In this document: piece by piece, positions 994-45,078 of the stretch
How the letters are laid out: every line of letters starts with the position of its first letter
Numbering within the stretch: the first letter of the stretch is position 1
The notes under the pieces: generated by a model
What the model saw: only the letters and a program-made list of their open reading frames with translations
What the model was told of the DNA's origin: nothing
The model's database searches: none
From: an uncultured bacterium
GTDB lineage: Bacteria; B130-G9
NCBI GenBank assembly: GCA_964480475.1
Contig: CAYZPW010000004.1
Coordinates: 1 to 58,715 of the forward strand
Direction: 5' to 3'
DNA length: 58,715 bases
Translations under genes and position numbers: made by a program

Positions 994-3273
994 CTAAAGC
1001 AAAGAGAATCCGACCTCGCTGATCGTACCGAGCAACTCACCGGTGTGGGCATCGGTCATAAAAGCCCAGAATCTGTAGTTGCCATGACCACCGATGCGAG
1101 GCGTCATCGATGGGAGTCGTGTATTTAGAATCGTAACATCATAAAGCTCAAAGACCGGTGGAAAATCGAGAACGAGCGGGAATGCGAATCCTGTCCAGGT
1201 CGGCCAGAAGAGGAGCCTGCCGTCAGGCGTGACAAGGAACACATAGAGGAAGACCCGGTAGAGGACGCTGTTGTTGCCGCCTGAGATAGTCAGGAGCAGG
1301 TCGTCGCCTTGCACATACATGGTATCATTCAGTGTTAGATAGAGCCACGGACCTGCGCCTTCTTCGCTGATTTTGACGGTTACGACGTCCGTTCCGGTCT
1401 TCCCGCGCGCATCCGTAGCGACGGCCTGGACGCTGTGGCTGACCTCCTCACCTTCCCTGGCTGCTGGGCTCAGCGTTGTCAGGATCGTGTCTCCCTCGCC
1501 GAGATAGCCTTCGATGTCGGAGAACCACTGAATCGTCTCACCTCCTGCGCCGAAACGGACTTCGGCCTTGAACTCGATTGTCTCGCCTGGTTCGAAGGTT
1601 GAGTTGTTCGCGGGCGTGAGGATGTTCACGACTGGCGGGATGAACTCTACGACAGCGGGCAGATAGAAATCACCCTCGAACGAGCCAGGCGCCCTGCCGT
1701 CTTGAGTGTAGAAGGTGCCTTTGAAAAGCCAAGTGGGCGCAATCGTCGTGCCGGTTAATATCACCTCATTTGGTTCCTCGAAATAGACAAGCGTCGCGTC
1801 CTCAATATCGAACGCTTCGTAGGGCGGAACTTGGAGGAGCGATACCTTGTTCTTGTATTCGTCAACGAGAGCGATTGCCTCGTCCTGTGAGAGGACCTGA
1901 GCCTCTTCTGTCTCCTCGAGCTTGCGCCAGCCGCCGATAGCGCCGATCACTTCGCCCTGGTCCCCTAGATAGACCTTGAGCTTGGCGCCGGGACCTACTA
2001 CGGAGAATATCAGCTCTCTGTAGGCTATCTCGTGGGGGTAGAACACGCAGCTGAGGATGGGCAGCTCATTCAGAGGTTCGCCTCTGCCCTGCCCTTCCCT
2101 ACCATACTCGAATATGATCTCAGTCTCGATTTCGGGGTCCCCGATGCCGCCGAGTATCAGACCTGCCAGACCTAGCCTGGCGAGAAACTCGTTTGCGAGT
2201 TTGATACCGATGTCGCCAATCATCAGGTTGGGGCTCTCCTTCGGCACCTTGAAGAGCTTATCAGCCTTTCCGAAGAACAGCCCACCATTCTTGTGAATCC
2301 GGAAGAAGGTGTCGTCTCCCGGCGAATCATACAGGCCGTAATAGCCGTCATCTCCAAGAACAACATCACCTTCCAGGCCCAGGGCACGCGCTATCGACGA
2401 GGCCTCCTGGTGAGTTATCGTCTCCTCAACCGCCTTATAGACCATCATCTCGTTCTGCTGAGCGTTCACGCGAGGCGGCTGGCATGCTGCGTCGTGGTCC
2501 CATGTCCAATAGGAGCCATCTTTGATGGGGTCTGGGGAGACGTAGCCCTCTCCCCATGCGTAATCGTTGTAGTTGTCGTTGACCTCGGCGAGGACCCTGG
2601 CGGTTACGGTCGTCCATCCATGCGGCTGAACGTAGTCAACGGCGAGGAACCAGGACTGCGTGACCGTAAAGGGGGAATCGAGCGACGAAGACCAGCTGCC
2701 GGTCATGTATTGGCCCCACTTCTTGCCGTCGCCCGGAGCATACACATACATCGTGTTCTTGAAGCCAAGGAGCTGGTGCAGACCATTCATCGCGTGGGAC
2801 CAGTGTCCTGCGCTGGAGTCCCGAAGCACGCTGCAGCAGTCCAGCGCGATCCACTCCAGGTTGTTCGTGCCCCAGAGGTTATAGACCTCCCCGGGGTGCA
2901 TGTGCGAGTCCGAAGAGCCGGTGCTAAAAACTACTGAGCTGTGATCGGCGCCCCAAAACGAGTCGTAATCAGAGCCGCCGTGGGTCCCGATCAAAGCTAT
3001 GTCAACAGAGTCGATCCACGAGTTGTCGTTTGTGGTGAAATCCGATTCCCAGGCGTTGGCGTTGGCCCAGTGGAACTGGCCATACCAGCCCTTGGCGGTG
3101 AGCTCGTCGTAGAGCCCTTCGGCCGACTCATCCCAGTGAGAGCGGTCGTTGCGGGTTCCCGCAAAGTCGTTGATCCACTCGACGCCAACAGAGGCGGCCA
3201 TCAGATTTGCGGCGCTGAAGAGCATCGCAGCCAAGACGATGCAAATGACCGGGATAATCGCGCGTTTTCTCAT
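994..3273 (-). CDS. Exported DUF6345-like protein with Ig/PKD-like domain and shared terminal module
   Basis: Signal peptide, AGGAGG RBS; DSVDIALIGTHG and WIALDCCSVL motifs recalled for DUF6345; PPVVNILTP...WFSDIEGYLG Ig-like domain; C-terminal YVQGD...FLVTPDGRLLFWP module. Confidence 0.75.
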   Translation of the reverse strand: MRKRAIIPVICIVLAAMLFSAANLMAASVGVEWINDFAGTRNDRSHWDESAEGLYDELTAKGWYGQFHWANANAWESDFTTNDNSWIDSVDIALIGTHGGSDYDSFWGADHSSVVFSTGSSDSHMHPGEVYNLWGTNNLEWIALDCCSVLRDSSAGHWSHAMNGLHQLLGFKNTMYVYAPGDGKKWGQYMTGSWSSSLDSPFTVTQSWFLAVDYVQPHGWTTVTARVLAEVNDNYNDYAWGEGYVSPDPIKDGSYWTWDHDAACQPPRVNAQQNEMMVYKAVEETITHQEASSIARALGLEGDVVLGDDGYYGLYDSPGDDTFFRIHKNGGLFFGKADKLFKVPKESPNLMIGDIGIKLANEFLARLGLAGLILGGIGDPEIETEIIFEYGREGQGRGEPLNELPILSCVFYPHEIAYRELIFSVVGPGAKLKVYLGDQGEVIGAIGGWRKLEETEEAQVLSQDEAIALVDEYKNKVSLLQVPPYEAFDIEDATLVYFEEPNEVILTGTTIAPTWLFKGTFYTQDGRAPGSFEGDFYLPAVVEFIPPVVNILTPANNSTFEPGETIEFKAEVRFGAGGETIQWFSDIEGYLGEGDTILTTLSPAAREGEEVSHSVQAVATDARGKTGTDVVTVKISEEGAGPWLYLTLNDTMYVQGDDLLLTISGGNNSVLYRVFLYVFLVTPDGRLLFWPTWTGFAFPLVLDFPPVFELYDVTILNTRLPSMTPRIGGHGNYRFWAFMTDAHTGELLGTISEVGFSLL

Positions 3274-9044: not shown

Positions 9045-10661
9045 TTAGTCAAGGATAAGATCGTAGATTGCCAGCTCGCAGGCGTATTCGAGCGTCCCCG
9101 GATGGCACATAACGGCGACTAAGGTGTGGTCGCCCTCGGAGAACCTGGGGTCGCCTGATACCGCTATTTCGTCAAGGAAAAACGGCCCGTGCCACGGCCA
9201 CGCCCGGGGCTGGAGCGTGAGATTGCTCAGGATCGGGCTTATCTCTCGCGTCCACTCGCCGGCAGAGAAGGTCAGAATCTCCGCAGTCGGGGTAATGACG
9301 GCCAGATAGACATCGACGTTCGCCTCGATATATCTCGACGCGCTGCCGGAGAGGAACACACAATAGGCACCATCTGCCTCCTCGACGTCCATGACGATGC
9401 GTGGGGCGATGCGGTAATGAAAGCCCATGTCAACGATGCCAGTGTCGGGCACAAAGTCGGTGCGCGTGGTGTAGAACTGCATCCCCGCCTCCTCAACGGA
9501 TACGCCGCCCGCGTCGATGCAGGGGCTATCCACGTCCTGCCCTGCCGCTGTGCTGCTGAGGAAGTATTCCTGGGAGCTTTGGTCATCCGAGCTGAATATC
9601 GGGTCGAGATCGATATTGCCCTCGCCCTCCAGACCGCCCTGGACGCAGCAATATTGCCCATCATAGTTCGCTGATGTGCCTGTACCCCAGAGGATGGAAG
9701 ACTGGGTCATGTTCTGCCCCCAACCGTAGCCGCGTGCGGTCAGTTCATGGTCTATAAGAGTCGAGTTTTGAACAATGCAGCGACCTCCCCAGATGGCAAA
9801 TGTGCCCCAAGTTGTGTTGTTGTTCAGCAGTAGGCAGTTTGTCAAGGTATAGGCTGTGCCGTAATCAGGAGCTCTTCCCGTATATGACCCGGCCCCCAGG
9901 AGCCCGCAGTCTCCCATCAGATAGTAGTTCTGGCAGCAGCCGTAACCACCGCTGTTGTTGGTGAAAACGCTGTCTGAGACTATCGCGCTTCCTGCCATGG
10001 CATAATACCAGTCGAACCACGAGATGCACGGTGAGCAGTCCGACATGTTCCAGGTGAAATCGCAATCGGTCACGATCAGATGCGGACGGGTTGGATGATT
10101 CACTTCCATGCGTATTCCTGCAGAGGTGCCTCCTGCGATGTTCGCGTGGAAATCGCATTTTATGAATTCTGCGTACGATCGATGGCCCACGTATGCACCT
10201 GTTGTTTGATAGAAGTGGCAGCAACAGGCCACCAACTCGCTATTCGCTCTGGCCTGAATGCCCTTGCCCTGGTAGTTACCATCAATCTGCACTCGCGATA
10301 GCACCAGCTTTGCCGAATCGCTCAGAACAAAGGCAAAACCCTCCTCAGGCTCAAAAGAAGCCGACGCGAAGACAGACTCACCGATGGTCTGCAGATAGAC
10401 CGTTCGCTCGATGGTGAATGGGAACGCCTCGTGAGCCGAGTCATACATCCCGTATGCATACTCAAGATAGACCATCGTCAACTCCGCCTCTTGGTCACGC
10501 GAGTACTCCAGCGCCTCGGTCAGGCTGCTAAACGCATCGGGTATAAACCCGGTGGGTGAGACCTGCAGGATGAGCGGTGAGGCGCCAGCGTGGCCGGGCA
10601 AGGCCCCAATCGTAAAGCTTGAGATGATGCACAGTGTTGCGAGTGTGGCTGTTCTTGTCAT
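9045..10661 (-). CDS. Exported right-handed beta-helix (pectin-lyase-like) protein with shared terminal module
   Basis: ATG 10661 after AAGGAGG; signal peptide; repeated xxCxFxxN strands; SPCIDAG...DMGFHY; C-terminal VDVYLAVITP module. Confidence 0.75.
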   Translation of the reverse strand: MTRTATLATLCIISSFTIGALPGHAGASPLILQVSPTGFIPDAFSSLTEALEYSRDQEAELTMVYLEYAYGMYDSAHEAFPFTIERTVYLQTIGESVFASASFEPEEGFAFVLSDSAKLVLSRVQIDGNYQGKGIQARANSELVACCCHFYQTTGAYVGHRSYAEFIKCDFHANIAGGTSAGIRMEVNHPTRPHLIVTDCDFTWNMSDCSPCISWFDWYYAMAGSAIVSDSVFTNNSGGYGCCQNYYLMGDCGLLGAGSYTGRAPDYGTAYTLTNCLLLNNNTTWGTFAIWGGRCIVQNSTLIDHELTARGYGWGQNMTQSSILWGTGTSANYDGQYCCVQGGLEGEGNIDLDPIFSSDDQSSQEYFLSSTAAGQDVDSPCIDAGGVSVEEAGMQFYTTRTDFVPDTGIVDMGFHYRIAPRIVMDVEEADGAYCVFLSGSASRYIEANVDVYLAVITPTAEILTFSAGEWTREISPILSNLTLQPRAWPWHGPFFLDEIAVSGDPRFSEGDHTLVAVMCHPGTLEYACELAIYDLILD

Positions 10662-10744
10662 TTTGACCTCCTTCAAGTTGTTCTCAACGTCATCATACTA
10701 CACTTTGCCAGGCGCATTTTGCGGCACATTTCAGCCCGGGATTA

Positions 10745-14585: not shown

Positions 14586-14604
14586 TTCTGCTCGCGCGCC
14601 TCAT

Positions 14605-19756: not shown

Positions 19757-19762
19757 GGACGA

Positions 19763-22284: not shown

Positions 22285-25200
22285 TTGTGGTCCTGGAGTC
22301 GTCGGAATCGCGCAGATTTGGCGCTATTGCGCCGTTCTCAAGCTGATACGGCGATGGCAATTCAGGGTTGAGTCCAGCGCTTGCGCAGTTGGAGAGCTCT
22401 GAGTAGTTCATCGCCTCGTCAAACGCTTTGAGAGCGAAGTAGTATCGCCTGTTGGCCTCCGGCAGGTCAAATAATAGGTTCTCAGTGGCGCCCGGGAACG
22501 ATGGGAAAATGAGCACCGGGGCCGGCGACGCCGCCTCGAAATCCTCCTCAGTACTGATCGGCGCCATCGAAAAACGCACGTCGTAGCCTTCAGCACGGCC
22601 AAGCGAGCCATCATCGCCCGGCGCGGTCCAGTGAAGACGCACGAGGCTCCCATCCTCGCTCAGGTGGGCGCCCAAGTCGTCAACTCTCGCGGGAGGGGTT
22701 GCATCAGCTGTGAAATCATAGAGTCTCAGGCAATAAACGTCGTCAAACATCTCCTGATAATCATACCCGCAGACTATCATCATGTAGCCATAGGGGCCCA
22801 CCACCCCAGCGGGTATCATGAGGATAGGCGTGCGGACGATAGGCGGCCTGGGGATTCCTGTGAGTATCGGCGCCAGGTCGGTCCAACTGTTTCCGCTGAT
22901 GTCATAGGAGAAGATTGCGTTGGAGACCGAGAAATTAGACGTTCTTCCCCCAAATGCGATTATCCTGTTGAAGTCAGAATCGTATCGCATGTCGTGAATA
23001 TAGGTCTCCTTTGGTGCAATGCCGTTCAGGGCCATAGAAAACCAGACCAATGACTCTGGATCGAGTGTGAACATGCTGCTTGTGAAACCATCCTCACCCA
23101 AGCCCCCGAACAGGAATGCGCTGTCGAGGGCCTCAGCATAGGCCATCGCTGTCAGATAGATTGTCGAAGGGCAGAAACCATTGCACTCAAAGGTGCTCCA
23201 TTCGTATGTCTGAAGGTCAAAGGCGTAGAAGTCGGTCACGAATTCGCCGCCGGAACTCATGAGGTATGCCCCATAATAAAGCAGGCGGTTGCGCGACGCG
23301 TCGAGAAACCCAGACCCGATAAGCGGCGTGCCTTCGGAGGGTTCAAACACTGGAGCGTCTCCGACAGGCTCATACTTGACCCAAACATGGTCGGGCAGGA
23401 CGAGCTGATAGACATTCATGTCAAACGCGAGCATCCAGATGCAGTCACGGGCTGAATCAAAGTGCGCCAGACATCGACCGAACGTCGGGAAAGGCCCGGA
23501 TGTCGGCACCTGCTCCCATCTGAGGCGTTCAAGGTCCAGAACGTATAGGATGTCCTCCTCCTCGTAGTCAGGAGTTCCGCCTAAGACATAGACGCGCTTG
23601 CGAGCGGGGTCGAGGACGACCTGGTGATTGAAGCGCGGGTAGGGCGTGGGCCCGGCGGGTTCAATCTGGAACCAGTCAACATCTGCTGCTGGGCGAACAG
23701 TCATAACGTTCGATGCGTGCCCGTCCTGGCCCAGTTCGTCATGCGCCGTCACGAAGAGCTCATATTGAACACCGTTTGCAAGACCCTTCAGCGTATAATC
23801 CCTCGTGAGCCCAACATCCAGAGTGCTGAAATCCTGACCAGCTTGAGTTTCACTTACCTCGAAATCAATCGCTCGATAATGGACGCGGTAGCCGGTCACA
23901 AACAGGTTATCAGGCCTCGACCACTGAAGCAGCGCTGAGCCCGCGCCGGCGACGACAGTGCCCAGGGTGGGAGCATCGAGCAGTTCTTCGGGCGAGGCCA
24001 CATACTCCTCCACAGTATAGTCAGTCTCGTTTGCGCAAGCGTCCACTGCGGTCGCAGCAAAGTAGTAGGTTCTCTGGTTGTCTAGGCCTGTAAGGTCGAT
24101 GGCGGTTTGCCGGAAGACCTTGATCGGCGAGGGGCCCTGGTCGGCGTCTGTCCCCTCGTATGGCTCACAGCAGCCATCACTGTCGTAATAGACCTTGAAG
24201 AAGGCGGGGTCTGGGGAGACGTTCCATTGGCATCTAATCGCTCTGTCGCCGACGCTTCCCTCCCTGATGGATATTACCTCTGGCGGATCGAAGTCATACT
24301 GACCGGACGTCCTGAATTCAAAGTGATAGGGCTCTTGCAGGGCGTTACCTCCTCTGTCCATCAGGGAATCATATACCGTGACGGAAACGGTTGCGCCGGA
24401 TGGGAAGTATTCATAGGGTGTGAAATGGATACAAGCGGCGTAGGGATCATATACCAGCTGCCCTTGCCAAACCCCACCCGGGTCACTCTCCACCCGCAGC
24501 GTATCAGATGATACGCTCTCCGGCGCCACGTCATCTGAGACGACGGCAAACACATGAGTATTCCGGGGCACATCTCGCTCTTGGTGGGCTGGAATTGTTA
24601 TGAGAACTCGCGGCGGCGCGCCGTCCTCCCCGAAACGGAACGTCCAGGACACAGGTTCCATTGCATTCTGCGACGGGGCATCGTCGCTTGCGGACAGCTC
24701 CACCCTAACTTGCTGCCCATACTCGAATCGACCGCTGCTCCCGTAGTAATTCACTTTCGCGCCGTTGAACATCATGAACAGCGTGGGACTGACAATCGCG
24801 TCGTTGATCGTCATTCGGACCGAATCTGCGTCTATTCGGCCACTAAAATCCCTTATGAAGGCAGAAATCCCGCTCGACGTCTCCCCGAACAACTCGTCGA
24901 GATCGACCACCGCTCCGTCCGGCGGTGACGTGGAGATGAGAATTGGCGGCCACACGTCGGCGCCAATTGAGAACGAGAAAGAATGGGACGCCATTACGTT
25001 GGGCGGCGCGGCGAGGTCCTGCCCCGTTATTTCAACGTCGTAACGCCTGTTGAAACCGAACTCTCCCTTACCCATATAGGTCATCATCCATCCCTCATCG
25101 GCGCGCTTGATACTGGCATTGACGTCCCGGCCGTTGACCGTCATCACAAGGCTGCCAATATCAACGTCCGTTCCGTTGTCGCCTATCATCGCGAAAACCG

Positions 25201-26356
25201 AGAACGGGTCGTCCGGGTTCTCAACGACACCAGCAGGTCCGAAGTCCTCCACAAATGGCGGCTCGGTGTCCGGCACAGCATCCGGTCGAATCGTGAAGGC
25301 ATATCGATATGGCTCCATCTGATTCGGTGTCGGGGACCTATCCGCACAAGCGATCTCAATGCCCATCTCAGAGCCGGGCGCAAGATGCTCATCGGGCGAA
25401 TAGACGACGATGACAGAATCCATGAGCTCCTGCGTCTCGAATTCTACGACGTTTCCATCCACAAGTAATTCAATGCTGCTGGGGTCAACTCCTGTCCCTT
25501 CGTCGGACAACTCGATCGATATCGTGGGGTTCGTCCGAGGCGCCTGCTCACCCGGCATGGGCGAGGCGCGGACGAATGACGGAGGCGTCGTATCGTATAG
25601 CCAATGGATGATCCGACGAAGGAGTTCATCGCGGCCGCTCGGGCCTCCCTCACTGTCAACTAGCGCCTCAAGCGCAAAGGAGAGGAACACTGCACGGTAA
25701 TGAAGCGTGGTTCCATCGGCCGGCAGGCGAACTGCCGCCCCATTGACCAGTGATTCGGAACTCATAGTCATGAAGACCTGAGCGTATTCATCGAGTGGCC
25801 TGACGAGCATGAAAAAATCTCTATTGCCGAAGGGTGATTCTGTTGAGAAGGACATGCCGGACCCAATAGGATCGTGCGGCGCTCCAAGTATCAGAAGTGG
25901 TCGCGTGTAGTAATCATACGCGACGTGCATGTATTCGAGCAGCAGACTCTCCGTGTTCTGATACGCATACTCGCCGGCCGAGAGGAGAAGTGCCCCACCA
26001 GCATCCAGGTAAGCCATGACGCGTCTGGCGCCCTCGCCGCGGTAAAGACCGAAACCGCTCCCGCCAACAGAATAGACCACAATCTCGTAGGACGAAAGAA
26101 GAGCCACACTGGGTGAAGTCGCCGACTCAGCTATGCTGAAAGTGTCGTATTCAACGCCGACATGATCGAGCGCCTCCGTGAGATAGTATGCGGTGCTTGT
26201 CAAGAAGAAGGACGCACTGTCGTCAACGAGCAGGATGCTAGGCGAATGCCCTTCCTGGGCATCGTCCGCAAGAACATCCAGCGAGCAACCCGACGCAACC
26301 GCAATGATCGCCAGGATGGCCATTAGCCTCAAGACGCCAGAGTCTATCTGGTTCAT
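22259..26356 (-). CDS. Large lipoprotein: GATase-like N-domain, Ig/Big_5 repeats, Fn3 domains, Kelch propeller
   Basis: Lipobox VASGC; repeated DxxPP...GVD..SI Ig units; Kelch repeats (GPTPYPRFNH, VYVLGG, FLFGG, IIAFGG); Fn3 WTAPGDDG..YDVRFS. Confidence 0.8.
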   Translation of the reverse strand: MNQIDSGVLRLMAILAIIAVASGCSLDVLADDAQEGHSPSILLVDDSASFFLTSTAYYLTEALDHVGVEYDTFSIAESATSPSVALLSSYEIVVYSVGGSGFGLYRGEGARRVMAYLDAGGALLLSAGEYAYQNTESLLLEYMHVAYDYYTRPLLILGAPHDPIGSGMSFSTESPFGNRDFFMLVRPLDEYAQVFMTMSSESLVNGAAVRLPADGTTLHYRAVFLSFALEALVDSEGGPSGRDELLRRIIHWLYDTTPPSFVRASPMPGEQAPRTNPTISIELSDEGTGVDPSSIELLVDGNVVEFETQELMDSVIVVYSPDEHLAPGSEMGIEIACADRSPTPNQMEPYRYAFTIRPDAVPDTEPPFVEDFGPAGVVENPDDPFSVFAMIGDNGTDVDIGSLVMTVNGRDVNASIKRADEGWMMTYMGKGEFGFNRRYDVEITGQDLAAPPNVMASHSFSFSIGADVWPPILISTSPPDGAVVDLDELFGETSSGISAFIRDFSGRIDADSVRMTINDAIVSPTLFMMFNGAKVNYYGSSGRFEYGQQVRVELSASDDAPSQNAMEPVSWTFRFGEDGAPPRVLITIPAHQERDVPRNTHVFAVVSDDVAPESVSSDTLRVESDPGGVWQGQLVYDPYAACIHFTPYEYFPSGATVSVTVYDSLMDRGGNALQEPYHFEFRTSGQYDFDPPEVISIREGSVGDRAIRCQWNVSPDPAFFKVYYDSDGCCEPYEGTDADQGPSPIKVFRQTAIDLTGLDNQRTYYFAATAVDACANETDYTVEEYVASPEELLDAPTLGTVVAGAGSALLQWSRPDNLFVTGYRVHYRAIDFEVSETQAGQDFSTLDVGLTRDYTLKGLANGVQYELFVTAHDELGQDGHASNVMTVRPAADVDWFQIEPAGPTPYPRFNHQVVLDPARKRVYVLGGTPDYEEEDILYVLDLERLRWEQVPTSGPFPTFGRCLAHFDSARDCIWMLAFDMNVYQLVLPDHVWVKYEPVGDAPVFEPSEGTPLIGSGFLDASRNRLLYYGAYLMSSGGEFVTDFYAFDLQTYEWSTFECNGFCPSTIYLTAMAYAEALDSAFLFGGLGEDGFTSSMFTLDPESLVWFSMALNGIAPKETYIHDMRYDSDFNRIIAFGGRTSNFSVSNAIFSYDISGNSWTDLAPILTGIPRPPIVRTPILMIPAGVVGPYGYMMIVCGYDYQEMFDDVYCLRLYDFTADATPPARVDDLGAHLSEDGSLVRLHWTAPGDDGSLGRAEGYDVRFSMAPISTEEDFEAASPAPVLIFPSFPGATENLLFDLPEANRRYYFALKAFDEAMNYSELSNCASAGLNPELPSPYQLENGAIAPNLRDSDDSRTTIENTPILR

Positions 26357-29238
26357 TATCGGTTCTCTCCGTTTCTCAATTGGGATGTTGCTATCTCAAA
26401 TGAAGTAGCCCTGGCGGCCGAGTAGAGGTCGTAAGTGCCGGATAATGTCACGGCGCCATAGGCAGAGTACTGCCCTGACGGAAAATGCTCTGTAATAGAC
26501 ATCTCAGCGACCTGGAAGAACAAGTCAGTTCCGGTCATGGCGAAAAACGGGAAGCCCACTATGTCCGATGTAAAGCCCAGACCATCGAAGAAAAGAAATC
26601 CCCCAGGGGTATCGATTGCTAAATAGACATCGATGCGGACCGACGGACCCTTGTGCTCAAGGCGCGCATCGAGTCTAAGTGTATCGCCGGGCACGAAAAC
26701 GGTGCCATTGACCAAGGGGAAGAGCGCCGGATACAGTCTTCTACAGAGCGTTATCTCCGTTATCTTAGTCTGGCCCCCGATGAGCAGAACGTCGAGTTCC
26801 TCGTATGGTTTGTAGGTAGGGGCGGAGACGTCAAGAGAGTATGAGCCTGCGGGCAGGTTCTCTATCGTGAACCTGCCGTCTGTGCCCGTTCGCACAGTTG
26901 ACGTCGTCGAGTCAAGGGCAACGAGCGCAGATTGAACCGGCTCGCCCGTTACAGCATCCAAAACCCGGCCCATGAGGGTCCCCGTCGTCCCCACATCCCC
27001 AAGTCTGAAGACGCCGCCGCCCTGGGTGGCTGCGTAAAGGACTGACCCGTCCGCGGAGATGTCAAGCGCCGTTATCGCTCGGTTCTCAAGGCCATCATTT
27101 ATGTGCATCCAGACCCCGCCGGCATCCTCCGACACGTATGCGCCGGTGTGCCAGTCGCCCGCAAAGACCCGATCGCTGTCGAGTGGATCGACCGCGAGGC
27201 CCCGCACCGTCGCCTCGGCATCTAAGCCGACATTAACCTGCATCCAGCTCAAACCGCCGTCCTGGCTCTTGAATATCCCGGCGTTTTCAGCCCCCGCGTA
27301 TAACACGTCCGGGTTGTTGGGGTCTATGGCTATTGACCTGATGTCCATTCTGGTTATCCCGGAGTTTATGTGAATCCAGTGTCCTCCGCCGTCAACTGTC
27401 TTGTAAACGCCGGAGTTGAGCGTCACGGCATAGGCGGTGTCGGGGTCGTGCGGGTGCACAACGATGGCGTTGATGTTCTTTGTGGTCTTCTCCAGACCAT
27501 CGTTCATCTGAACCCAGGTATCGCCCCCGTCCGTCGATTTATAGACCCCCATGCTCGGCCGGGTGGTATCGTAAGGGGTCATTCGGTCGAACTCGATCGT
27601 CTTATCGGGTATCCTCGCGCCTGCATATATAACCGAGGGATCCGAGGGCGCAAAGACAACTGTCTTGATCCCATGAAGAGAAAGAGGGTAGTGGACCTGG
27701 TCAACTGGAATGATGACCAGCAGGATCTCCCAGGATTCCCCGCGGTCCTGAGTCCTGTATAGCTCCCCGTAGAACTGGTCGGCAGCAAGGACAACGTTTG
27801 GCTCGTCCGGTTTGACGCAAACGGCCGACCACTCGGGCCTTGGTTGGACGCCGGACATTCCCCCGGTTCCCAACCAGTTGAGGCCGCCATCAAAGCTCTT
27901 GAACGGGCCGGGTCGCCCCACGGCAAATACAACGGACGGACTGTAGGGGTCCATGGCGATGTCAGTCAGCTCGGCGCCAGTGAAACCGTTCATTGCGTTC
28001 ATCCAGGTGGCGCCGGCGTCCAAAGACAAATACAGCCCGCCCGTGTAGGAGTTCACAAACACCTTGTCCGGGTTGGTGGGGTCGATCGTTATGGTTATCG
28101 GAACACCTGAATAGACGTCCGGTAGGCCCAGAGGCATCGTATCCCACGACTCTCCTCCATCGTAGCTTCTCGCAAACTGCCATTCGCTTGATGCGTAGAT
28201 GATGTCAGGATCGCTCCGGTCAACCTCCACTGCGTTCCAACAGCGATACGCCGGCCCGATCTCCGTCCAGCTCTGGCCCCCATCCGTGGTCTTTAGGATG
28301 GAGCCGTGCCGTGGCTCTGGCTCTGGGCCGAAACCCTCGTGCCGGCCCGTCGCGCAGAAGAGCGTGTTGTGGTCGAACGGGTGCATAGTCAGGCCCCCAA
28401 CCACAAGGTTATCAATGCCATTGTTGATATGATACCACGTGGCGCCTCCGTCATCGGACTTAAGTATGCCCTCGGGGACCACGTCCCACCTATCAAATAT
28501 GCCGGTTGCCGTATAGACAACGTCCGTGTCCTCGGGGTCGATCACGATGTACCGAACCAGGGCGTCGCAGTCCAAAACCGTGAACCAGTTGTCCCCACCG
28601 TCGGTCGTCTTGAATATCATGCCTCGCGACTTGTTCTGGCCGATGAGCGGAATCTCCACCCCAGTATAGACGATGTTTGTGTCGTCGGGGTTGATCGTGA
28701 ACGACCTGAACGACATGCCCTCCAGGTCGGGTATCCCGCGGTCCATCTTGACCCAGCTCTCGCCCTTGTCGAATGACTTATAGACCCCACGCATCCCATA
28801 CGTCCCGCACCAAACTATGTTGGAGTCGTATGGGTCAATCGTGCAGCAGAAAATCGGAACCGAGTCGAGCGACGGCCCGAATCTGCTTGTGATGCCCTCG
28901 TTTCTCGGGTACCATGTATAGCCGCCATCGTAGCTCTTGCACATGCCCGCCCACTGGTCGGTTGTATAGACGATGTTGGGGTCCCGCGGGTCGATGCGTG
29001 TGTCGTAGCCCAGCCCCCCGGGCGGTCCCAACGTCGATGTCCACCTGAGGGGTCTAGGCTCCTGAGCCCAAGCGCTCGGGAGTATGAAGAGGCCCCCCAA
29101 AACTAGGATAAGGATGAAGCTCCAGGAAAACTTCGCCCCGAAGCGCGGATGGCATCCAGATGCTAGGCTGCGGGCAAATGCTTGAAAGGCTACTCCCACG
29201 TCGTCAATCTCCCCCGAAATGGAATGTCTCGGTCTCAC
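26356..29238 (-). CDS. Exported BNR/VPS10-like beta-propeller protein with carboxypeptidase-regulatory-like domain and shared terminal module
   Basis: Many SxDGGxTW Asp-box repeats; GTLMGRVLDA..GEPV domain; C-terminal FVPGD..IDVYLAIDTPGG module. Confidence 0.85.
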   Translation of the reverse strand: MRPRHSISGEIDDVGVAFQAFARSLASGCHPRFGAKFSWSFILILVLGGLFILPSAWAQEPRPLRWTSTLGPPGGLGYDTRIDPRDPNIVYTTDQWAGMCKSYDGGYTWYPRNEGITSRFGPSLDSVPIFCCTIDPYDSNIVWCGTYGMRGVYKSFDKGESWVKMDRGIPDLEGMSFRSFTINPDDTNIVYTGVEIPLIGQNKSRGMIFKTTDGGDNWFTVLDCDALVRYIVIDPEDTDVVYTATGIFDRWDVVPEGILKSDDGGATWYHINNGIDNLVVGGLTMHPFDHNTLFCATGRHEGFGPEPEPRHGSILKTTDGGQSWTEIGPAYRCWNAVEVDRSDPDIIYASSEWQFARSYDGGESWDTMPLGLPDVYSGVPITITIDPTNPDKVFVNSYTGGLYLSLDAGATWMNAMNGFTGAELTDIAMDPYSPSVVFAVGRPGPFKSFDGGLNWLGTGGMSGVQPRPEWSAVCVKPDEPNVVLAADQFYGELYRTQDRGESWEILLVIIPVDQVHYPLSLHGIKTVVFAPSDPSVIYAGARIPDKTIEFDRMTPYDTTRPSMGVYKSTDGGDTWVQMNDGLEKTTKNINAIVVHPHDPDTAYAVTLNSGVYKTVDGGGHWIHINSGITRMDIRSIAIDPNNPDVLYAGAENAGIFKSQDGGLSWMQVNVGLDAEATVRGLAVDPLDSDRVFAGDWHTGAYVSEDAGGVWMHINDGLENRAITALDISADGSVLYAATQGGGVFRLGDVGTTGTLMGRVLDAVTGEPVQSALVALDSTTSTVRTGTDGRFTIENLPAGSYSLDVSAPTYKPYEELDVLLIGGQTKITEITLCRRLYPALFPLVNGTVFVPGDTLRLDARLEHKGPSVRIDVYLAIDTPGGFLFFDGLGFTSDIVGFPFFAMTGTDLFFQVAEMSITEHFPSGQYSAYGAVTLSGTYDLYSAARATSFEIATSQLRNGENR

Positions 29239-31210
29239 TTGTCATCAAGATGTCTTCGAGCTGCAAGCCTTTCTCATCGGCCACGTCCTTGAAGACTTTC
29301 CGATAGATAAGCCGCGCATCGACCGTCGCGGTGTTTGCGGCCACTGGCAAGCGGAATTCGTAGGTTGAAAAATCGGATTGAAGCGCGGGGATGCGGGTGT
29401 CGGACAGGATCATCGTCTGCCGCCACGACGGGGCGGGGTGATTGCCAAGCTGGTCAACCAGTATCTTGGCGAACATCTTCCCCGGGCGCCCGGCGAAGTC
29501 CCGTGGCCCGCCGCCCGTGCCGCCATAACCCAGCACAACTTGCTCCCCGACGAACTCAAGCTCGTTGCCGTCGCGATCGAAGGCGTTGACAAGTAGTATG
29601 ATGTTGCGTATCGGCCTGCCGGTAGGAAGATGATGTCCTGCAAAGGCGTTGAACACCTCGACTGTCGCCACAAGGCGGTTGTCCGGTTCCTTTGAGGCCG
29701 CAATTGATAGTATCGCCGATTCGTAGTGCAGCGAGATGCTGTCCTCTCCCATGATGAGATGAGAAGGGATGGTGTCCGGGTCTCTCTCCCTCGCGTGGCT
29801 GAGAGGAGCGAAGTTCTTGGTGATCCCATCCGGCCTGTAGTGGCAGGCCTGGCACTGTATGCCCATTTCCTTATATTCGCTGGCTTCCCACTCGGGGAAC
29901 GATGTGTATGTCGGCACGCCCCAGAACTCACAAGCGTGGCAAGGTGCGCATATCTCGCTTCTCTTCATCAGGGGCAGGAAGGTGCTTATACGCCCAGCAT
30001 CTTTGATGGGTCCCAGCACAATCCAGCGGTCAGGGAACGGACGGCGCAATTCAATTGCGTTAATGCCATAGACCGTGCCCGGGTTAGACAGATCGACGTC
30101 GATGATCTTATGGCAGAAATCACAGAAGACGCCTTGCTGACCCAACGGACTGAGATTAGCCATATCCGAATCGTATGGCGATTTGAGCGCCTCAGAGGGA
30201 GCGTGGCAAAGCGCACAGCTGCCTGCCGTCTCCGGGAAATCGAGCTTGTAGCCAAGCCCAACGCCAGGGTTACCGCCAACGTCGGCCCCAGTATAAAGCG
30301 TCTGAAAAATAGCATTGCTGGCGGAGCGAGCGTGGAAATTGGCGGACCACTGCTGAAACGGAGGGGTAAGGCATTTCATGCAATTGAATTGGTGGTCGGA
30401 TACGGACGGTATCGGCGGAACCCATTCATATTCCTCGTTATCAACCGGGGTTATTGGGTCCAGGGATAGCACGACGCTAGTGGTTGGCGTGAGAACCTCA
30501 ACAGCGGCGCAATAATACTCGTATTTCCAGCCAGAGACGTCGAGTCGCACGTCGCATGGAACACCCTCAAGAACGAATCTGCCATCTCTGTCGCTCTGAA
30601 CCTCATTCGACGAGGCGCGCACCTTTACCGTCGCAGATGAGGCGGGGCCGTTCTCATCGAATATCTGACCGGAGATGATGCAGTGCTGCGGGTCAAAAGT
30701 GAACGATTCGGCACTGAACGTGACGGGCAGGAGAGTGTCAGCAGAAGTCAGCATTCCCCATAGCCAATACTCACCTTGAGGCAGGCTCAGATCGTGCCTA
30801 AGAATGGCCCTATAGACAAGTGTCTTAGGAAGCATACCATGCCGCGTGATATGAAAGCCTCTCGCTGCGGGAACCGGAGAGGGGGAACCCATCCAGCTCG
30901 CCTCGACCAGGCTGCCTTTTTCGACCATCAGGCCCGAGAATGACAAGTCTGGAAGCAAGCAGTATAACCTCCCGTCCGGCAGCTCCAGGCCAAGATACAT
31001 ATCGACGGCAACATCCTCCTGAGGCGGGCAAATCTCGACGTAGAGCCTCAACCGATCCCAGGTGATGTAGTGGACCTTTTCGGCGAAGAACCTGATCGAG
31101 AGGTCTTCATAGCTCAAGGACGTTTGCCCCGTGACAAGCAAAGGCAAGCCACAGGAACACAAACCGGTCATTACGACTATAAGGCACTTGATGTGCCGAG
31201 CACAGGTCAT
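29204..31210 (-). CDS. Exported multiheme c-type cytochrome (c554-like) with N-terminal shared module
   Basis: CALCH, CDFCH, CAPCH, CQACH plus one CMKCL; GHHLPTG; carboxypeptidase-regulatory-like domain; start 31210 or 31237. Confidence 0.85.
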   Translation of the reverse strand: MTCARHIKCLIVVMTGLCSCGLPLLVTGQTSLSYEDLSIRFFAEKVHYITWDRLRLYVEICPPQEDVAVDMYLGLELPDGRLYCLLPDLSFSGLMVEKGSLVEASWMGSPSPVPAARGFHITRHGMLPKTLVYRAILRHDLSLPQGEYWLWGMLTSADTLLPVTFSAESFTFDPQHCIISGQIFDENGPASSATVKVRASSNEVQSDRDGRFVLEGVPCDVRLDVSGWKYEYYCAAVEVLTPTTSVVLSLDPITPVDNEEYEWVPPIPSVSDHQFNCMKCLTPPFQQWSANFHARSASNAIFQTLYTGADVGGNPGVGLGYKLDFPETAGSCALCHAPSEALKSPYDSDMANLSPLGQQGVFCDFCHKIIDVDLSNPGTVYGINAIELRRPFPDRWIVLGPIKDAGRISTFLPLMKRSEICAPCHACEFWGVPTYTSFPEWEASEYKEMGIQCQACHYRPDGITKNFAPLSHARERDPDTIPSHLIMGEDSISLHYESAILSIAASKEPDNRLVATVEVFNAFAGHHLPTGRPIRNIILLVNAFDRDGNELEFVGEQVVLGYGGTGGGPRDFAGRPGKMFAKILVDQLGNHPAPSWRQTMILSDTRIPALQSDFSTYEFRLPVAANTATVDARLIYRKVFKDVADEKGLQLEDILMTSETETFHFGGD

Positions 31211-31282
31211 GAAACTACCCCCGGATCTATCCAACAATTAATATGCGCCACGTCAACACTGAACGTCAAGGCTGAACGCCCC

Positions 31283-40115: not shown

Positions 40116-41396
<1,281 letters not shown>

Positions 41397-42845: not shown

Positions 42846-42928
42846 CCCAACTGGAGGCGAGCTCGGCACGTGCGAGCCGTCAAAGTTCGCCCGCGGGTGA
42901 AAAGAGCTATGGGAGCGGAGGCTCTCCG
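42846..42928. repeat. Dispersed repeat family (CCCAACTGGAGGCGAGCTC...TGGGAGCGGAGGCTCTCCG), copy 1
   Basis: Second copy at 46247-46346; overlaps the last codons and stop of the 42907..45078 gene. Confidence 0.7.
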
Positions 42929-45078
42929 TCGAATGTGAACGGCGCGGTTGCGATGTCGGTTATCATGTTGAACGTGCCTTGCTCGAACATGGCCGTCATC
43001 CAGGTGTAATCGCCCCCATAGAAATCCGGCGGGAAATCGTATATCAGGACGAAGACCATCGGGACCGTAGTGCCCGACGGGAGCATCCCACTCATGAACG
43101 GCTCTGGCATGTCCCCGCCCGGGTAGTAGAACAGCGAGCCGTCCGGCAGCTGACACGCCACCTGGATGTCGATCAACACGTCCGGGCCAGGGTTCTCGTA
43201 TGTCAGCGCGACCGTCATCGTGTCGCCCGCGTGATAGAGCTCTGCGTCCGTCGAGATGGTTATCGTCGGCTTCGCCGGCTGGAGGCCCGACTCGCGGCAT
43301 ACCAGCCCGGTCGGCGTTGCGAACCACACGTCACCGTTGGGCGCGGCGGAGATGTCGCGTATCTTGTTCGCCGGAAACCCGGTATCGGTGTCCCACATGG
43401 TCCACTCGTTCCGGTCGAAATAACCAAGCCCGTCGTCTGTGCCGACCCAGATATTGTTCGCCCCGTCGCACTCGATGCAGTTGATCCAATTTGACGGCAG
43501 GCCGTCATCGACCGTGTACCAAGCGAGTTCATTCTCGCCGTCGAACTCCAGGACACCCATCGTACTGACATCAAAACCTATCCAGAGCAGGCCGTCGTTG
43601 TCGCAGGCGATTGTGCTTGCCCAGGGATACTCAGGCCGCCAATCAACGAGTGCGTCGTTTTGCAGCACAGCGATGCCCTGATCGGTGCCGACCCACACCT
43701 TTCCCTCCAGGTCAGAAGCGATAGACAAAGGGCGGATAGACGGTGATGCGCCCCAAACGCTCCACGACTGCCAGGTGTTATTCGCGTTGTGTTTGGCCAC
43801 ACCGCCGGCACAACATATCCACATATTGTCGTTCATATCCCGGCAAATGTCCTTGCAAGAGTCAAGTCCTATGCCACCGGTACCTGCTCTGCGATAGTCG
43901 ATCATCATGCCTCGCCACACCTTTAGATTCGAGCTGCACGCCAGCCAGATTGACTCGCCGGGACCGAACTCGATGTCGCGAACCTCCCAGCCGTATGTGA
44001 TCTCGGGTTGATATATCACCTCCCATCGGGAGCCGTCGTGGTAGCCAAGCTGACCGCTGCCCGTCCCGTAGAAGAGCTGGCCCCGATCGTTTACCGCCAC
44101 CGATGATATATCATTGTTAATGACCGAGCTCTCAGCGCCCGTGTAGCAGCTCCATAGGCCATTCTTGTATCGAGCGAGCCCTGCCGTGGTTGTGAAATAG
44201 ACGGAGCCATCCGCTCCTGAGGCTATCCCACCGATTCCGTTGGAGGGCAGGCCGCTGTTCAACGTGTTAAAGACGGTCCAATTCTCCCCATCGAACATCG
44301 AGACTCCCACAGGCAGAAAGTCTCCAACCCATACCCGGCCCAGGATGTCAACGTCCAGGTATTCCGGCCAATTGCCTGCCAGGCCGTCTGACATGACATA
44401 CGACCGCACAAACTCCCCATCCTGGAACACACTCACTTTCTCGGTAATCCCCCCCGCGAGCCACACCTCGCCCGGCGACCGAGCGGCCATATCGTCGACC
44501 AGACCAACGTGTTGCTCAAACAGGGTCCACTCTCCGTCGTGGTATCTGGCCAGGACGTCACTAAAGACGAACCAGCCGGTCCCGTCAGCCTCAAAACAGA
44601 TTTCCCTGGCTAATTTCGTCAATGGGCAGTCGGATACCTCATCCCATACCCCATTCTCAAAGCGCATCAGCACCCAGACCCAGCCCTGACCCTCTTTTCG
44701 ACGCACGCTGGCCCAGACGGGGCCGTCAGGCGAGGCTGCCAGCTCCCGTACGGAGCCCTCCAACATATAGACCCTGGTCTCGCCCTGATAGAGGCGCCAG
44801 GGGTGGCTGGAGCAGAACCAGACGCCATCGAAGGCATCTACCACGACGCTCCCGGAGTCGGACGTTGGCAGCTTGTAACTCACTATCTCCTCTGTGGACG
44901 GATCGAAACCTTTCATATCCGACCCGAGCTGATACCAAACCACGCCGTGCGAATCCACGGCGGCGTGCCCTCCGCCCACCAAGGGATTCTGGTAGAGCGT
45001 AAACTCCTGCGCGAACGCGATTGACACAACAAGCAAAGCAGCAAATAGAAAACATGCAGCAATTCTCATCTTAAGCAC
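42907..45078 (-). CDS. Exported Reg_prop-type beta-propeller protein with shared terminal module
   Basis: Signal peptide; repeats NSGLPSNGI, GLPSNWI, VWVGT..G; C-terminal YHAGD..IDIQVACQLPDGSLFYYP module. Confidence 0.85.
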   Translation of the reverse strand: MLKMRIAACFLFAALLVVSIAFAQEFTLYQNPLVGGGHAAVDSHGVVWYQLGSDMKGFDPSTEEIVSYKLPTSDSGSVVVDAFDGVWFCSSHPWRLYQGETRVYMLEGSVRELAASPDGPVWASVRRKEGQGWVWVLMRFENGVWDEVSDCPLTKLAREICFEADGTGWFVFSDVLARYHDGEWTLFEQHVGLVDDMAARSPGEVWLAGGITEKVSVFQDGEFVRSYVMSDGLAGNWPEYLDVDILGRVWVGDFLPVGVSMFDGENWTVFNTLNSGLPSNGIGGIASGADGSVYFTTTAGLARYKNGLWSCYTGAESSVINNDISSVAVNDRGQLFYGTGSGQLGYHDGSRWEVIYQPEITYGWEVRDIEFGPGESIWLACSSNLKVWRGMMIDYRRAGTGGIGLDSCKDICRDMNDNMWICCAGGVAKHNANNTWQSWSVWGASPSIRPLSIASDLEGKVWVGTDQGIAVLQNDALVDWRPEYPWASTIACDNDGLLWIGFDVSTMGVLEFDGENELAWYTVDDGLPSNWINCIECDGANNIWVGTDDGLGYFDRNEWTMWDTDTGFPANKIRDISAAPNGDVWFATPTGLVCRESGLQPAKPTITISTDAELYHAGDTMTVALTYENPGPDVLIDIQVACQLPDGSLFYYPGGDMPEPFMSGMLPSGTTVPMVFVLIYDFPPDFYGGDYTWMTAMFEQGTFNMITDIATAPFTFDGEPPLP

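What the first reader, a model, noticed from the sequence alone, without database searches (positions are those of the whole stretch)
994..45078. Top candidate: a shared ~120-aa terminal module on five unrelated exported proteins, a possible new sorting or surface-anchoring system
Seen by manual alignment: the C-termini of the DUF6345 protein (~994-1355), beta-helix protein (~9045-9410), BNR propeller (~26356-26740) and Reg_prop propeller (~42907-43270), and the post-signal N-terminus of the multiheme cytochrome (~30700-31105), follow one pattern. It reads (Y/F)xxGD...(V/I)D(V/I/M)YL(A/G)xxxP(D/G)GxLx(F/Y)...G(D/E/Q/N)(Y/H)...(G/D)TxxL...F. Examples are LVTPDGRLLFWP, VDVYLAVITP, IDVYLAIDTPGGFLFF, IDIQVACQLPDGSLFYYP and VDMYLGLELPDGRLY. 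The cargo domains are unrelated and identity is low, as for T9SS CTDs or SLH/dockerin-type tags. It does not look like any sorting signal I recognise. The lipid-anchored 1365-aa protein lacks it, consistent with an alternative anchor (inference). The N-terminal placement favours a docking domain over a cleaved signal.
Basis: partly seen in the sequence, partly recalled or inferred. Interest (0 to 1): 0.82.

Follow-up and report, generated by a model that had tools for sequence, protein, structure and literature searches.

The report
Uncatalogued terminal beta-sandwich domain family
Five unrelated exported proteins of an uncultivated sediment bacterium share a ~120-residue immunoglobulin-like module from a widespread family absent from Pfam and NCBIfam; it sits almost always at the very start or end of secreted proteins and looks more like a binding handle than a secretion signal.

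Summary
All five segments are homologous. A profile of 114 family members from elsewhere hits them at E 1e-32 to 3e-15, and the next window ORF scores E 0.39. Profile-profile comparison with an outside subfamily gives 99.7% probability.

The module belongs to a large family: 1022 protein clusters at E<=1e-3. No Pfam-A (2025) or NCBIfam (2026) model reaches threshold, and no solved structure matches by sequence. AlphaFold gives a pLDDT-97 eight-strand beta-sandwich. Its structural neighbours are generic: CARDB, macroglobulin MG2, FnIII-like domains, Wzt glycan-binding domain, RbmA.

Placement is strongly terminal in 132 family proteins:
- 72 end with the module, within about 3 residues of the stop.
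- 40 start with it, directly after the signal peptide.
- 3 carry it at both ends.
- 33 have 2-3 copies.

Relatives of the window organism (Coatesbacteria lineage) carry many copies. The family also occurs in Thiomargarita/Parabeggiatoa, Desulfobacterales and Fidelibacterota.

The "sorting system" reading is only partly supported. I found no linked machinery and no match to T9SS or other sorting signals. N-terminal, tandem and double-ended placements argue against a cleaved secretion tag. The best reading is a non-catalytic binding, retention or assembly module, but its function is untested.

The parts
997..1362 (-). Module copy 1: C-terminal ~122 aa (aa ~638-759) of the DUF6345 protein. It ends at the stop codon.
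   Evidence: Outside-member profile E 1.5e-26; leave-one-out E 1.7e-7.
9048..9422 (-). Module copy 2: C-terminal ~123 aa of the beta-helix protein, ending at the stop codon. This is the most divergent copy; its first strands lack the YxxGD motif.
   Evidence: Outside-member profile E 3.2e-15 over profile positions 34-114; leave-one-out only E 0.041.
26383..26748 (-). Module copy 3: aa ~831-952 of the 960-aa BNR/Sortilin propeller protein. It directly follows a CarboxypepD_reg domain and is followed by an 8-aa tail.
   Evidence: Outside-member profile E 3e-17; leave-one-out E 1.6e-8; Pfam domains.
30683..31117 (-). Module copy 4: aa ~41-185 of the multiheme cytochrome. It lies directly after the signal peptide, carries a ~20-aa loop insertion, and is directly followed by a CarboxypepD_reg domain.
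   Evidence: Outside-member profile E 1.1e-15; leave-one-out E 3.4e-4; alignment; Pfam domains.
42922..43284 (-). Module copy 5: aa ~599-719 of the 723-aa Reg_prop propeller protein. The AlphaFold model is of this copy.
   Evidence: Outside-member profile E 1.1e-32; AlphaFold pLDDT 97, pTM 0.89.
994..3273 (-). Host gene 1: 759 aa, with signal peptide, DUF6345, a weak Big_7 match, then the module.
9045..10676 (-). Host gene 2: about 538 aa from the ATG at 10661, with signal peptide, a weak right-handed beta-helix match, then the module.
   Evidence: P0011.
26356..29238 (-). Host gene 3: signal peptide, BNR/Sortilin propellers, CarboxypepD_reg, then the module. Its ends overlap the neighbouring genes on both sides.
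29204..31237 (-). Host gene 4: about 668 aa from the ATG at 31210, with signal peptide, the module, CarboxypepD_reg, then a cytochrome with four CxxCH motifs (weak ExtKL-like match).
   Evidence: P0009.
42907..45078 (-). Host gene 5: signal peptide, Reg_prop beta-propeller, then the module.
22259..26356 (-). Context, not a member: a 1365-aa lipoprotein (lipobox VASGC; Big_5, fn3 and Kelch domains) without the module. Its reading frame overlaps the end of the BNR gene. Its adjacency to the BNR gene is conserved in two relatives.
   Evidence: no module hit; neighbour cluster with L006 and L041.

Best explanation
**What it is.** The five segments are copies of one ancient, highly diverged protein domain of about 115-125 residues (145 in the cytochrome, because of a loop insertion). 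It folds as an eight-strand immunoglobulin-like beta-sandwich of the CARDB/DUF11/MG2/FnIII-like class. Its conserved LPxGxY resembles the FnIII tyrosine-corner motif (my own reading; not tested). The family is large and is not represented in Pfam-A or NCBIfam.

**What is shown.**
- Homology of the five copies.
- The fold.
- The size of the family.
- Its restriction to signal-peptide proteins.
- Its extreme preference for the very C-terminus or the first position after the signal peptide.
- Tandem and double-ended arrangements.
- Many copies per genome in the window's lineage.

**What is inferred.** The module most likely acts as a non-catalytic binding handle. It stays on the mature protein and ties diverse exported cargo (beta-helices, beta-propellers, a multiheme cytochrome, thioredoxin-like and lipase domains) to a common partner. 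The partner could be an envelope glycan or polymer, a scaffold protein, or another copy of the module, giving end-to-end assembly. I do not think it is a cleaved secretion signal.
For: **Homology.**

**Family size.** 1022 representative clusters at E<=1e-3 and 132 at E<=1e-10 among 1.84 billion representatives.

**Fold.** pLDDT 97 and pTM 0.89 from a 45-sequence alignment. The best Foldseek matches are the AlkC Ig-like domain, alpha2-macroglobulin MG2, CARDB 3idu, the Wzt carbohydrate-binding domain, GH3 FnIII-like domains and RbmA, at TM 0.55-0.69 and E about 1e-4.

**Weak Pfam similarity.** Only sub-threshold hits to beta-sandwich models, none at gathering score: DUF4785_2nd in 6 of 45 members, DUF11 in 5 of 45, plus Arrestin_C, MG2, A2M_BRD and NPCBM_assoc.

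**Terminal bias in 132 proteins.**
- 72 are C-terminal, the domain ending within 0-3 residues of the stop.
- 40 are N-terminal, the domain starting at aa 19-30.
- 12 are internal only.
- 8 were scored as both. Three of those are true double-ended ~880-aa proteins; the rest are fragments or start at a miscalled start codon.

**Copy number per protein.** 28 proteins have two copies and 5 have three. Repeated copies are usual for binding modules, where avidity matters, and make little sense for an export tag.

**Signal peptides.** 111 of 139 complete-start proteins look signal-peptide-like by a crude hydrophobicity rule.

**Cargo diversity.** DUF1565/Beta_helix/NosD, Reg_prop, PQQ, NHL and BNR propellers, PKD, AhpC, FGE-sulfatase and GDSL lipase.

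**Many copies per genome.** A DNA pattern that matches only 20 of 129 family modules (about 15%) still found:
- 7 loci with 9 copies in the GTDB representative closest to the window;
- 5 loci with 8 copies in a second MAG;
- 3 loci each in two Coatesbacteria MAGs.

**In the window.** Five of about ten signal-peptide proteins carry the module.
Against: - No binding partner, ligand or processing site has been identified.
- The conserved residues (alternating hydrophobics, the PDG turn, LPxGxY) look mostly structural, so no functional surface is evident.
- Structural neighbours are generic (TM about 0.6) and include both binding and purely structural domains.
- Surface or extracellular location of the cargo proteins is not shown.
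- The C-terminal copies end almost exactly at the stop codon, as T9SS C-terminal domains also do.
- The outside-member profile was recruited with the window-derived profile, so it is not fully independent.
- The signal-peptide count uses a crude heuristic.
- Some taxonomic assignments rest on MAG binning.
Confidence: 0.5

Rival explanations
1. Generic structural end-cap or spacer. The module would be just one more Ig-like domain that accreted at protein termini by domain shuffling, with no common partner and no addressing role. It would stabilise or project the cargo.
For: The fold and its neighbours are generic. The conserved positions look structural. There are no conserved neighbouring genes. 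The window copies share only 17-25% identity, so nothing suggests selection for one common recognition surface.
Against: About 91% of family proteins carry the module at a terminus, often flush with the stop codon or the signal-peptide site. From general knowledge, spacer Ig domains such as Big, PKD and fn3 are typically internal and repeated; I ran no positional comparison here. The module recurs on very different cargo and in many copies per genome. Double-ended proteins exist.
Confidence: 0.25
2. Secretion or sorting signal. A dedicated envelope machinery would recognise the module, much as the T9SS recognises its C-terminal domains, and would possibly remove it or use it for covalent attachment.
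For: It is an Ig-like sandwich of about 120 aa at the extreme C-terminus of many unrelated signal-peptide proteins. There are many per genome. The cargo types (beta-helices, propellers) are those commonly carried by T9SS substrates. One confirmed locus comes from Fidelibacterota, a relative of Bacteroidota.
Against: - No hit to Por_Secre_tail or to the TIGR04183/TIGR04131 models in 45 members, even at E<=1.
- 40 of 132 proteins, and the window cytochrome, carry the module N-terminally.
- Tandem copies and copies at both ends occur.
- C-terminal copies occur in Thiomargarita/Parabeggiatoa and Desulfobacterales MAGs, lineages not known to have a T9SS (general knowledge).
- The window and 34 related loci contain no candidate machinery.
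- There is no C-terminal transmembrane helix plus basic tail, as sortase and exosortase signals have (sequences).
Confidence: 0.1
3. Substrate-targeting module of the carbohydrate-binding-module type. It would bind an environmental polymer or mineral surface rather than the cell's own envelope, bringing enzymes and the cytochrome to their substrate.
For: Foldseek neighbours include the Wzt O-antigen-binding domain, a porphyran-binding CBM and GH3 accessory domains. Tandem copies occur. The cargo includes lipase, sulfatase-modifying and beta-helix (often polysaccharide-active) domains.
Against: Many cargo proteins are propellers with no enzymatic annotation. No CBM family matches by sequence. 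No glycan-binding residues have been identified. This overlaps the best explanation and differs only in the partner.
Confidence: 0.12

Closest known systems
CARDB (PF07705), DUF11 (PF01345) and macroglobulin MG2-type beta-sandwich domains
   Same: They share the overall fold; CARDB 3idu and alpha2-macroglobulin MG2 rank among the best Foldseek matches at TM about 0.6. The N-terminal half shows sub-threshold sequence similarity: DUF11, MG2, A2M_BRD and NPCBM_assoc give weak hits. The window-derived profile also picks up partial matches, 6 to 23 per protein, in giant repeat proteins, at least one of which is a DUF11 repeat protein.
   Different: No member reaches any Pfam gathering score. The C-terminal half has its own conserved motifs (LPxGxY..AA....GT...AxF). 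From general knowledge, those families usually occur as internal tandem repeats, whereas this one is terminal in about 91% of proteins.
Type IX secretion C-terminal domains (Por_Secre_tail, PF18962/TIGR04183; type B, TIGR04131)
   Same: Both are Ig-like beta-sandwiches at the extreme C-terminus of many unrelated signal-peptide proteins, with many copies per genome and similar cargo types.
   Different: There is no sequence match, and no T9SS C-terminal domain appears among the 50 best structural matches. This module is also found N-terminally, in tandem and at both ends. It occurs in Gammaproteobacteria and Desulfobacterota MAGs. At about 120 aa it is longer than the 70-100 aa of T9SS domains.
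Non-covalent anchoring or docking modules on exoproteins (SLH, dockerin/cohesin, LysM, cell-wall-binding repeats)
   Same: The logic is the same: one shared non-catalytic module on diverse exported cargo, at either terminus, often repeated, and expanded in particular lineages.
   Different: The folds differ and there is no sequence match. No partner (secondary cell-wall polymer, cohesin or similar) has been identified. The host organisms appear to be diderm: OmpA and flagellar motor genes lie in L051.
Vibrio cholerae RbmA (tandem FnIII biofilm-matrix scaffold)
   Same: It is among the top structural matches (TM up to 0.69). It is a secreted beta-sandwich that works by self-association and glycan binding. 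That offers a precedent for the end-to-end assembly idea raised by the double-ended proteins.
   Different: Sequence identity is 14-18% with no sequence-level homology. RbmA is a stand-alone two-domain protein, not a tag on varied cargo.

Membership tests
T9SS C-terminal domain (type A TIGR04183/PF18962; type B TIGR04131) | Sequence match to the CTD profile models | tested here: not met
   No hit at E<=1 in 45 diverse members (Pfam; NCBIfam), and none in the five full-length window proteins.
T9SS C-terminal domain (type A TIGR04183/PF18962; type B TIGR04131) | Located only at the extreme C-terminus of the substrate | tested here: not met
   40 of 132 proteins, and the window cytochrome, carry it directly after the signal peptide. 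Three proteins carry it at both ends and 33 have 2-3 copies.
T9SS C-terminal domain (type A TIGR04183/PF18962; type B TIGR04131) | Occurs in genomes that encode the T9SS translocon and sortase (SprA, PorV, PorU, GldKLMN) | not testable with these tools
   Whole genomes were not available. None of these genes lies in the window or among recurrent neighbours. Confirmed C-terminal copies occur in Thiomargarita, Parabeggiatoa and Desulfobacterales MAGs, lineages not known to have a T9SS (general knowledge).
T9SS C-terminal domain (type A TIGR04183/PF18962; type B TIGR04131) | Ig-like beta-sandwich fold | tested here: met
   Eight-strand sandwich, pLDDT 97. The fold is shared by many unrelated families and is not discriminating.
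CARDB/DUF11-like Ig-fold domains | Beta-sandwich fold superimposable on CARDB or MG2 structures | tested here: met
   3idu (CARDB) at TM 0.63 and 2p9r (MG2) at TM 0.58-0.70, E about 1e-4.
CARDB/DUF11-like Ig-fold domains | Score at or above the Pfam gathering threshold for PF07705, PF01345 or a related model | tested here: not met
   Best is DUF11 at E 0.0018 in 5 of 45 members; 15.9 bits against a cut-off of 24.6 for the window P5 segment. CARDB itself is not listed.
Sortase/exosortase-type C-terminal sorting signals (LPXTG, PEP-CTERM and similar) | Short motif followed by a hydrophobic helix and a basic tail at the C-terminus | tested here: not met
   The window proteins end in a beta-strand of the module (...FSLL...LILD...FTFDGEPPLP) with no transmembrane segment or basic tail. 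No such NCBIfam model hits.
SLH, dockerin and other catalogued anchoring modules | Sequence match to the family model | tested here: not met
   None is listed.

The most novel reading that the evidence does not exclude
The module is the address label of an undescribed envelope-organising system in Coatesbacteria-like and other sediment bacteria. In one version a shared receptor retains dozens of different exported proteins, including an extracellular-type multiheme cytochrome, on the cell surface. In the other, module-module pairing between N-type and C-type copies assembles them end to end into a surface lattice or into complexes. The adjacent, overlapping cytochrome (N-terminal module) and BNR (C-terminal module) genes, and the double-ended propeller proteins, hint at the second version.
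Probability: 0.15. Interest if true: 0.75.

Novelty: new member of a known kind. Interest (0 to 1): 0.45.

Why it matters
This gives a name and a model to a domain carried by roughly a thousand 50%-identity clusters of exported proteins, mostly from uncultivated sediment bacteria. Those lineages include a candidate phylum with essentially no cell biology (Coatesbacteria), giant sulfur bacteria and Desulfobacterales. For now these regions have no match in Pfam-A or NCBIfam.

A curated HMM would improve annotation. It would also mark a coherent set of probably co-localised proteins in each genome. If the module proves to be a retention or assembly handle, it would reveal how these organisms organise their surface or periplasmic proteome. 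It would also supply a portable tag.

If it is only a structural cap, the result is a routine new domain of unknown function.

Tried and rejected
- **Word-indexed homologue search.** All three searches returned only 6-14 short, mostly fragmentary proteins. They were of little use for taxonomy or architecture. The exhaustive HMMER search was the productive route.
- **The search for related loci on GTDB genomes.** I replaced it with a degenerate DNA pattern scan. Of its 48 loci, 11 (about a quarter) had no HMM match at all, in line with the roughly 9 chance matches I estimated for the pattern.
- **PDB sequence search with the family profile.** Nothing below E 0.1.
- **Search for linked machinery.** All-against-all clustering of 216 ORFs from 34 loci found only response regulators, histidine kinases, GT4 glycosyltransferases and the syntenic lipoprotein. 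Context look-ups for four family proteins showed unrelated neighbours.
- **Literature.** Searches for Coatesbacteria, DUF6345 and C-terminal sorting beta-sandwich domains found no description of this module.
- **Chance similarity.** Rejected.
- **Stand-alone signal-peptide-plus-module proteins.** Most apparent cases are fragments or miscalled starts. However, complete ~206-aa proteins consisting of a signal peptide, a ~60-aa repeat segment and the module do exist.

Full report
**1. The observation**

The window encodes, all on the minus strand, five signal-peptide proteins with unrelated cargo:
- P1, 994-3273: DUF6345.
- P2, 9045-10676: weak right-handed beta-helix.
- P3, 26356-29238: BNR/Sortilin propellers plus CarboxypepD_reg.
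- P4, 29204-31237: CarboxypepD_reg plus a cytochrome with four CxxCH motifs and a weak ExtKL-like match.
- P5, 42907-45078: Reg_prop propeller.

None of the claimed terminal segments has a Pfam or NCBIfam match. The five segments are 17-25% identical, and pairwise BLASTP is marginal to modest (E 5.7e-7 to 0.33). Profile methods are nonetheless clear. In leave-one-out HMMs, the omitted segment is always the best non-training hit among 464 six-frame ORFs (E 1.7e-7, 0.041, 1.6e-8, 3.4e-4, 6e-8). P2 was the only weak case.

**2. The family**

An exhaustive HMMER search with the five-segment profile, against 1.84 billion representatives, found 1022 proteins at E<=1e-3 and 132 at E<=1e-10. I built a second profile from 114 of these, excluding the window proteins and their close orthologues. 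It recovers all five window modules at E 1.1e-32 (P5), 1.5e-26 (P1), 3e-17 (P3), 1.1e-15 (P4) and 3.2e-15 (P2). The next window ORF scores E 0.39. The window therefore holds exactly five copies, and the 1365-aa lipoprotein and the two ~1100-aa paralogues have none.

Comparing the window profile with an outside 22-sequence subfamily by hhalign gives 99.7% probability and E 6.7e-26.

One caveat applies: the outside members were recruited with the window-derived profile.

**3. Is it already described?**

I scanned 45 diverse members one by one.
- Pfam-A gave only sub-threshold hits to beta-sandwich models: DUF4785_2nd in 6 of 45, DUF11 in 5 of 45, and Arrestin_C, MG2, A2M_BRD and NPCBM_assoc in 1-3 members each. 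The best E-value was 0.0018.
- NCBIfam gave nothing meaningful.
- No T9SS, SLH, dockerin or exosortase-type model appears.
- The PDB has no sequence relative below E 0.1.
- Literature searches found no description.

InterPro's other member databases could not be checked.

**4. Structure**

With the five-sequence alignment, AlphaFold reached only pLDDT 76. With the 45-sequence alignment it reached pLDDT 97 and pTM 0.89, giving an eight-strand beta-sandwich.

Foldseek against the PDB returns generic Ig-like relatives at TM 0.55-0.69 and E about 1e-4:
- the AlkC Ig-like domain
- alpha2-macroglobulin MG2
- CARDB (3idu)
- the Wzt carbohydrate-binding domain
- GH3 FnIII-like domains
- RbmA
- a porphyran-binding CBM
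- the Deinococcus HPI S-layer protein

No T9SS C-terminal domain is among the best 50. The conserved LPxGxY resembles the FnIII tyrosine-corner motif (my own knowledge; not tested). Most conserved positions look structural.

**5. Architecture across the family**

I analysed the 132 proteins among the best 150 that hold a near-full copy.
- 72 end with the module; the projected domain end lies within 0-3 residues of the stop in nearly all.
- 40 begin with it; the projected start is at residues 19-30, immediately after the signal peptide.
- 12 hold only internal copies.
- 8 scored as both. Three of these (P0033, P0071, P0104, ~880 aa, with no Pfam scan table of their own; P0071 and P0104 were included only in the pooled scan) truly carry one copy at each end.
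- 28 proteins have two copies and 5 have three, mostly in tandem at the C-terminus.

Placement is subfamily-specific. One 31-member cluster is almost entirely N-terminal, and a 29-member cluster is mostly C-terminal.

By a crude hydrophobicity rule, 111 of 139 proteins with a methionine start have a signal-peptide-like N-terminus.

Cargo is very diverse:
- DUF1565/Beta_helix/NosD (19 of 78 proteins)
- Chlam_PMP repeats
- Reg_prop, PQQ, NHL, SBBP and BNR propellers
- PKD
- AhpC/thioredoxin
- FGE-sulfatase
- GDSL lipase
- DUF6345

Complete ~206-aa proteins made of a signal peptide, a short repeat segment and the module also exist. One lies downstream of three collagen/Peptidase_S74 fibre-like genes.

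**6. Organism and distribution**

The window is an NCBI contig. Its cytochrome is 90.6% identical to that of the GTDB representative MAG CBDVDH01. Its BNR, cytochrome, MMPL and laccase-like proteins are 64-71% identical, with conserved gene order, to those of the Candidatus Coatesbacteria MAG B130_G9. A P5-like orthologue is annotated as Candidatus Coatesbacteria. The candidate phylum is Candidatus Coatesiibacteriota.

I scanned the GTDB species genomes for the DNA pattern encoding VD.Y[VIL][AG][LIV]..PDG.L. This pattern matches only 20 of 129 family modules. It gave 48 loci, of which 37 had an HMM match and 11 had none. That fits my estimate of roughly 9 chance matches. Five of the 37 matches are short, partial or weak: L015, L022, L031, L035 and L047.

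Confirmed loci by source:
- CBDVDH01: 7 loci, 9 copies.
- CAZKNE01: 5 loci, 8 copies.
- Two Coatesbacteria MAGs: 3 loci each.
- JAGHCW01: 2 loci.
- Thiomargarita and Parabeggiatoa, Desulfobacteraceae/Desulfamplus, Fidelibacterota and Auribacterota.
- One 2.4-kb contig binned as Saccharibacteria, which is doubtful.

A fragment from Candidatus Tectomicrobia also appeared.

A relative's contig carries OmpA-type MotB genes and flagellar genes, so the lineage is probably diderm and motile.

**7. Search for machinery**

The window contains no sortase-, exosortase- or T9SS-like genes. Its other genes include:
- housekeeping and envelope genes: GlnA, an Rnf cluster, enolase, GpsA, glycosyltransferases, an S41/PDZ protease, an MMPL transporter, a DNA methylase and an IS200-like transposase;
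- several ORFs with no Pfam match: 18496-19191, 19260-19922, 21433-22284 and the paralogue at 50259-53657;
- the paralogue at 53786-57127, which has only a sub-threshold Transglut_core hit.

I clustered 216 ORFs from 34 loci. The only recurring neighbours were response regulators, histidine kinases, GT4 glycosyltransferases and the syntenic lipoprotein. Unlinked machinery cannot be excluded without whole genomes.

**8. Interpretation**

Shown:
- a real, ancient domain family that is absent from Pfam-A and NCBIfam;
- a strong terminal preference on Sec-exported proteins;
- expansion in the window's lineage.

Inferred: it acts as a retained, non-catalytic binding, retention or assembly module. 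The reasons are:
- N-terminal, tandem and double-ended placements are common for binding modules and are hard to reconcile with a cleaved C-terminal export tag.
- C-terminal copies occur in lineages not known to have a T9SS.
- There is no linked machinery.

Two window details fit a docking or assembly idea but prove nothing:
- The cytochrome (N-terminal module), the BNR protein (C-terminal module) and the lipoprotein have overlapping reading frames. Cytochrome-BNR adjacency is conserved in L006 and L041, and BNR-lipoprotein adjacency in the same two loci.
- In both P3 and P4 the module abuts a CarboxypepD_reg domain, in mirror-image order.

The rival readings remain open: a plain structural end-cap, a true sorting signal, or a module that targets an environmental substrate.

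**9. Verdict**

The interpretation as a new sorting or anchoring system is only partly supported. The novelty is a new domain family within a well-known fold class. Interest is moderate. It would be high only if a shared receptor, a self-assembly role or a dedicated machinery is demonstrated.

Noticed in passing
window 50259-53657 (+) and 53786-57127 (+): Two tandem paralogous signal-peptide proteins of 1132 and 1113 aa. The first has no Pfam match at E<=0.001. The second has only a sub-threshold Transglut_core hit (20 bits). A scan of the first protein's C-terminal 285 aa gave one sub-threshold Big_13 hit. Both end with two repeats carrying the motif DDGxxGDxxAGDGI[YF]TF, so this is a different, also unannotated, C-terminal repeat.
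   Followed up: partly
window 20084-31237 (-): An operon-like run in which the first four reading frames overlap at their ends: cytochrome (N-terminal module), BNR protein (C-terminal module), the 1365-aa lipoprotein (Big_5/fn3/Kelch) and a 283-aa unknown with a possible lipobox. A GT1 glycosyltransferase follows. Cytochrome-BNR adjacency is conserved in L006 (Coatesbacteria B130_G9) and L041. The lipoprotein-BNR adjacency is conserved in the same two loci.
   Followed up: partly
window 26383-26982 and 30521-31117 (-): In P3 a CarboxypepD_reg domain directly precedes the module. In P4 a CarboxypepD_reg domain directly follows it. This mirror-image pairing of the same two domains may reflect a shared two-domain unit.
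   Followed up: no
window 13512-13949 (-): An IS200-like Y1 transposase (PF01797, E 5.7e-26) lies between glnA and the Rnf cluster.
   Followed up: yes
window 14004-16830 (-): Rnf genes: RnfD at 15832-16830, an FMN_bind (RnfG-like) ORF at 15263-16114, and two Rnf-Nqr membrane subunits at 14605-15198 and 14004-14585. The longer ATG ORF at 14582-15214 is in the wrong frame; the TTG ORF at 14605-15198 is the real Rnf-Nqr subunit.
   Followed up: yes
L053 551-8621: A complete 206-aa protein (signal peptide, a ~60-aa SxNFxL repeat segment, then a C-terminal module) lies directly downstream of three collagen-repeat/Peptidase_S74 proteins, which look like fibre proteins.
   Followed up: no
proteins P0172 and P0178: These short signal-peptide proteins combine RHS/YD-repeat matches (PF05593) with a C-terminal copy of the module.
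   Followed up: no
proteins P0027, P0038, P0042, P0046, P0095, P0124: A conserved ~435-aa subfamily carries the module internally (aa ~198-318), flanked by N- and C-terminal regions with no Pfam match. It is the main exception to terminal placement.
   Followed up: partly
window 3578-4378 (-) and L051 3056-4381: An N6/N4 DNA methylase lies near a module-bearing gene both in the window and in a relative's contig. The two are only 27% identical, so this is probably coincidental.
   Followed up: no
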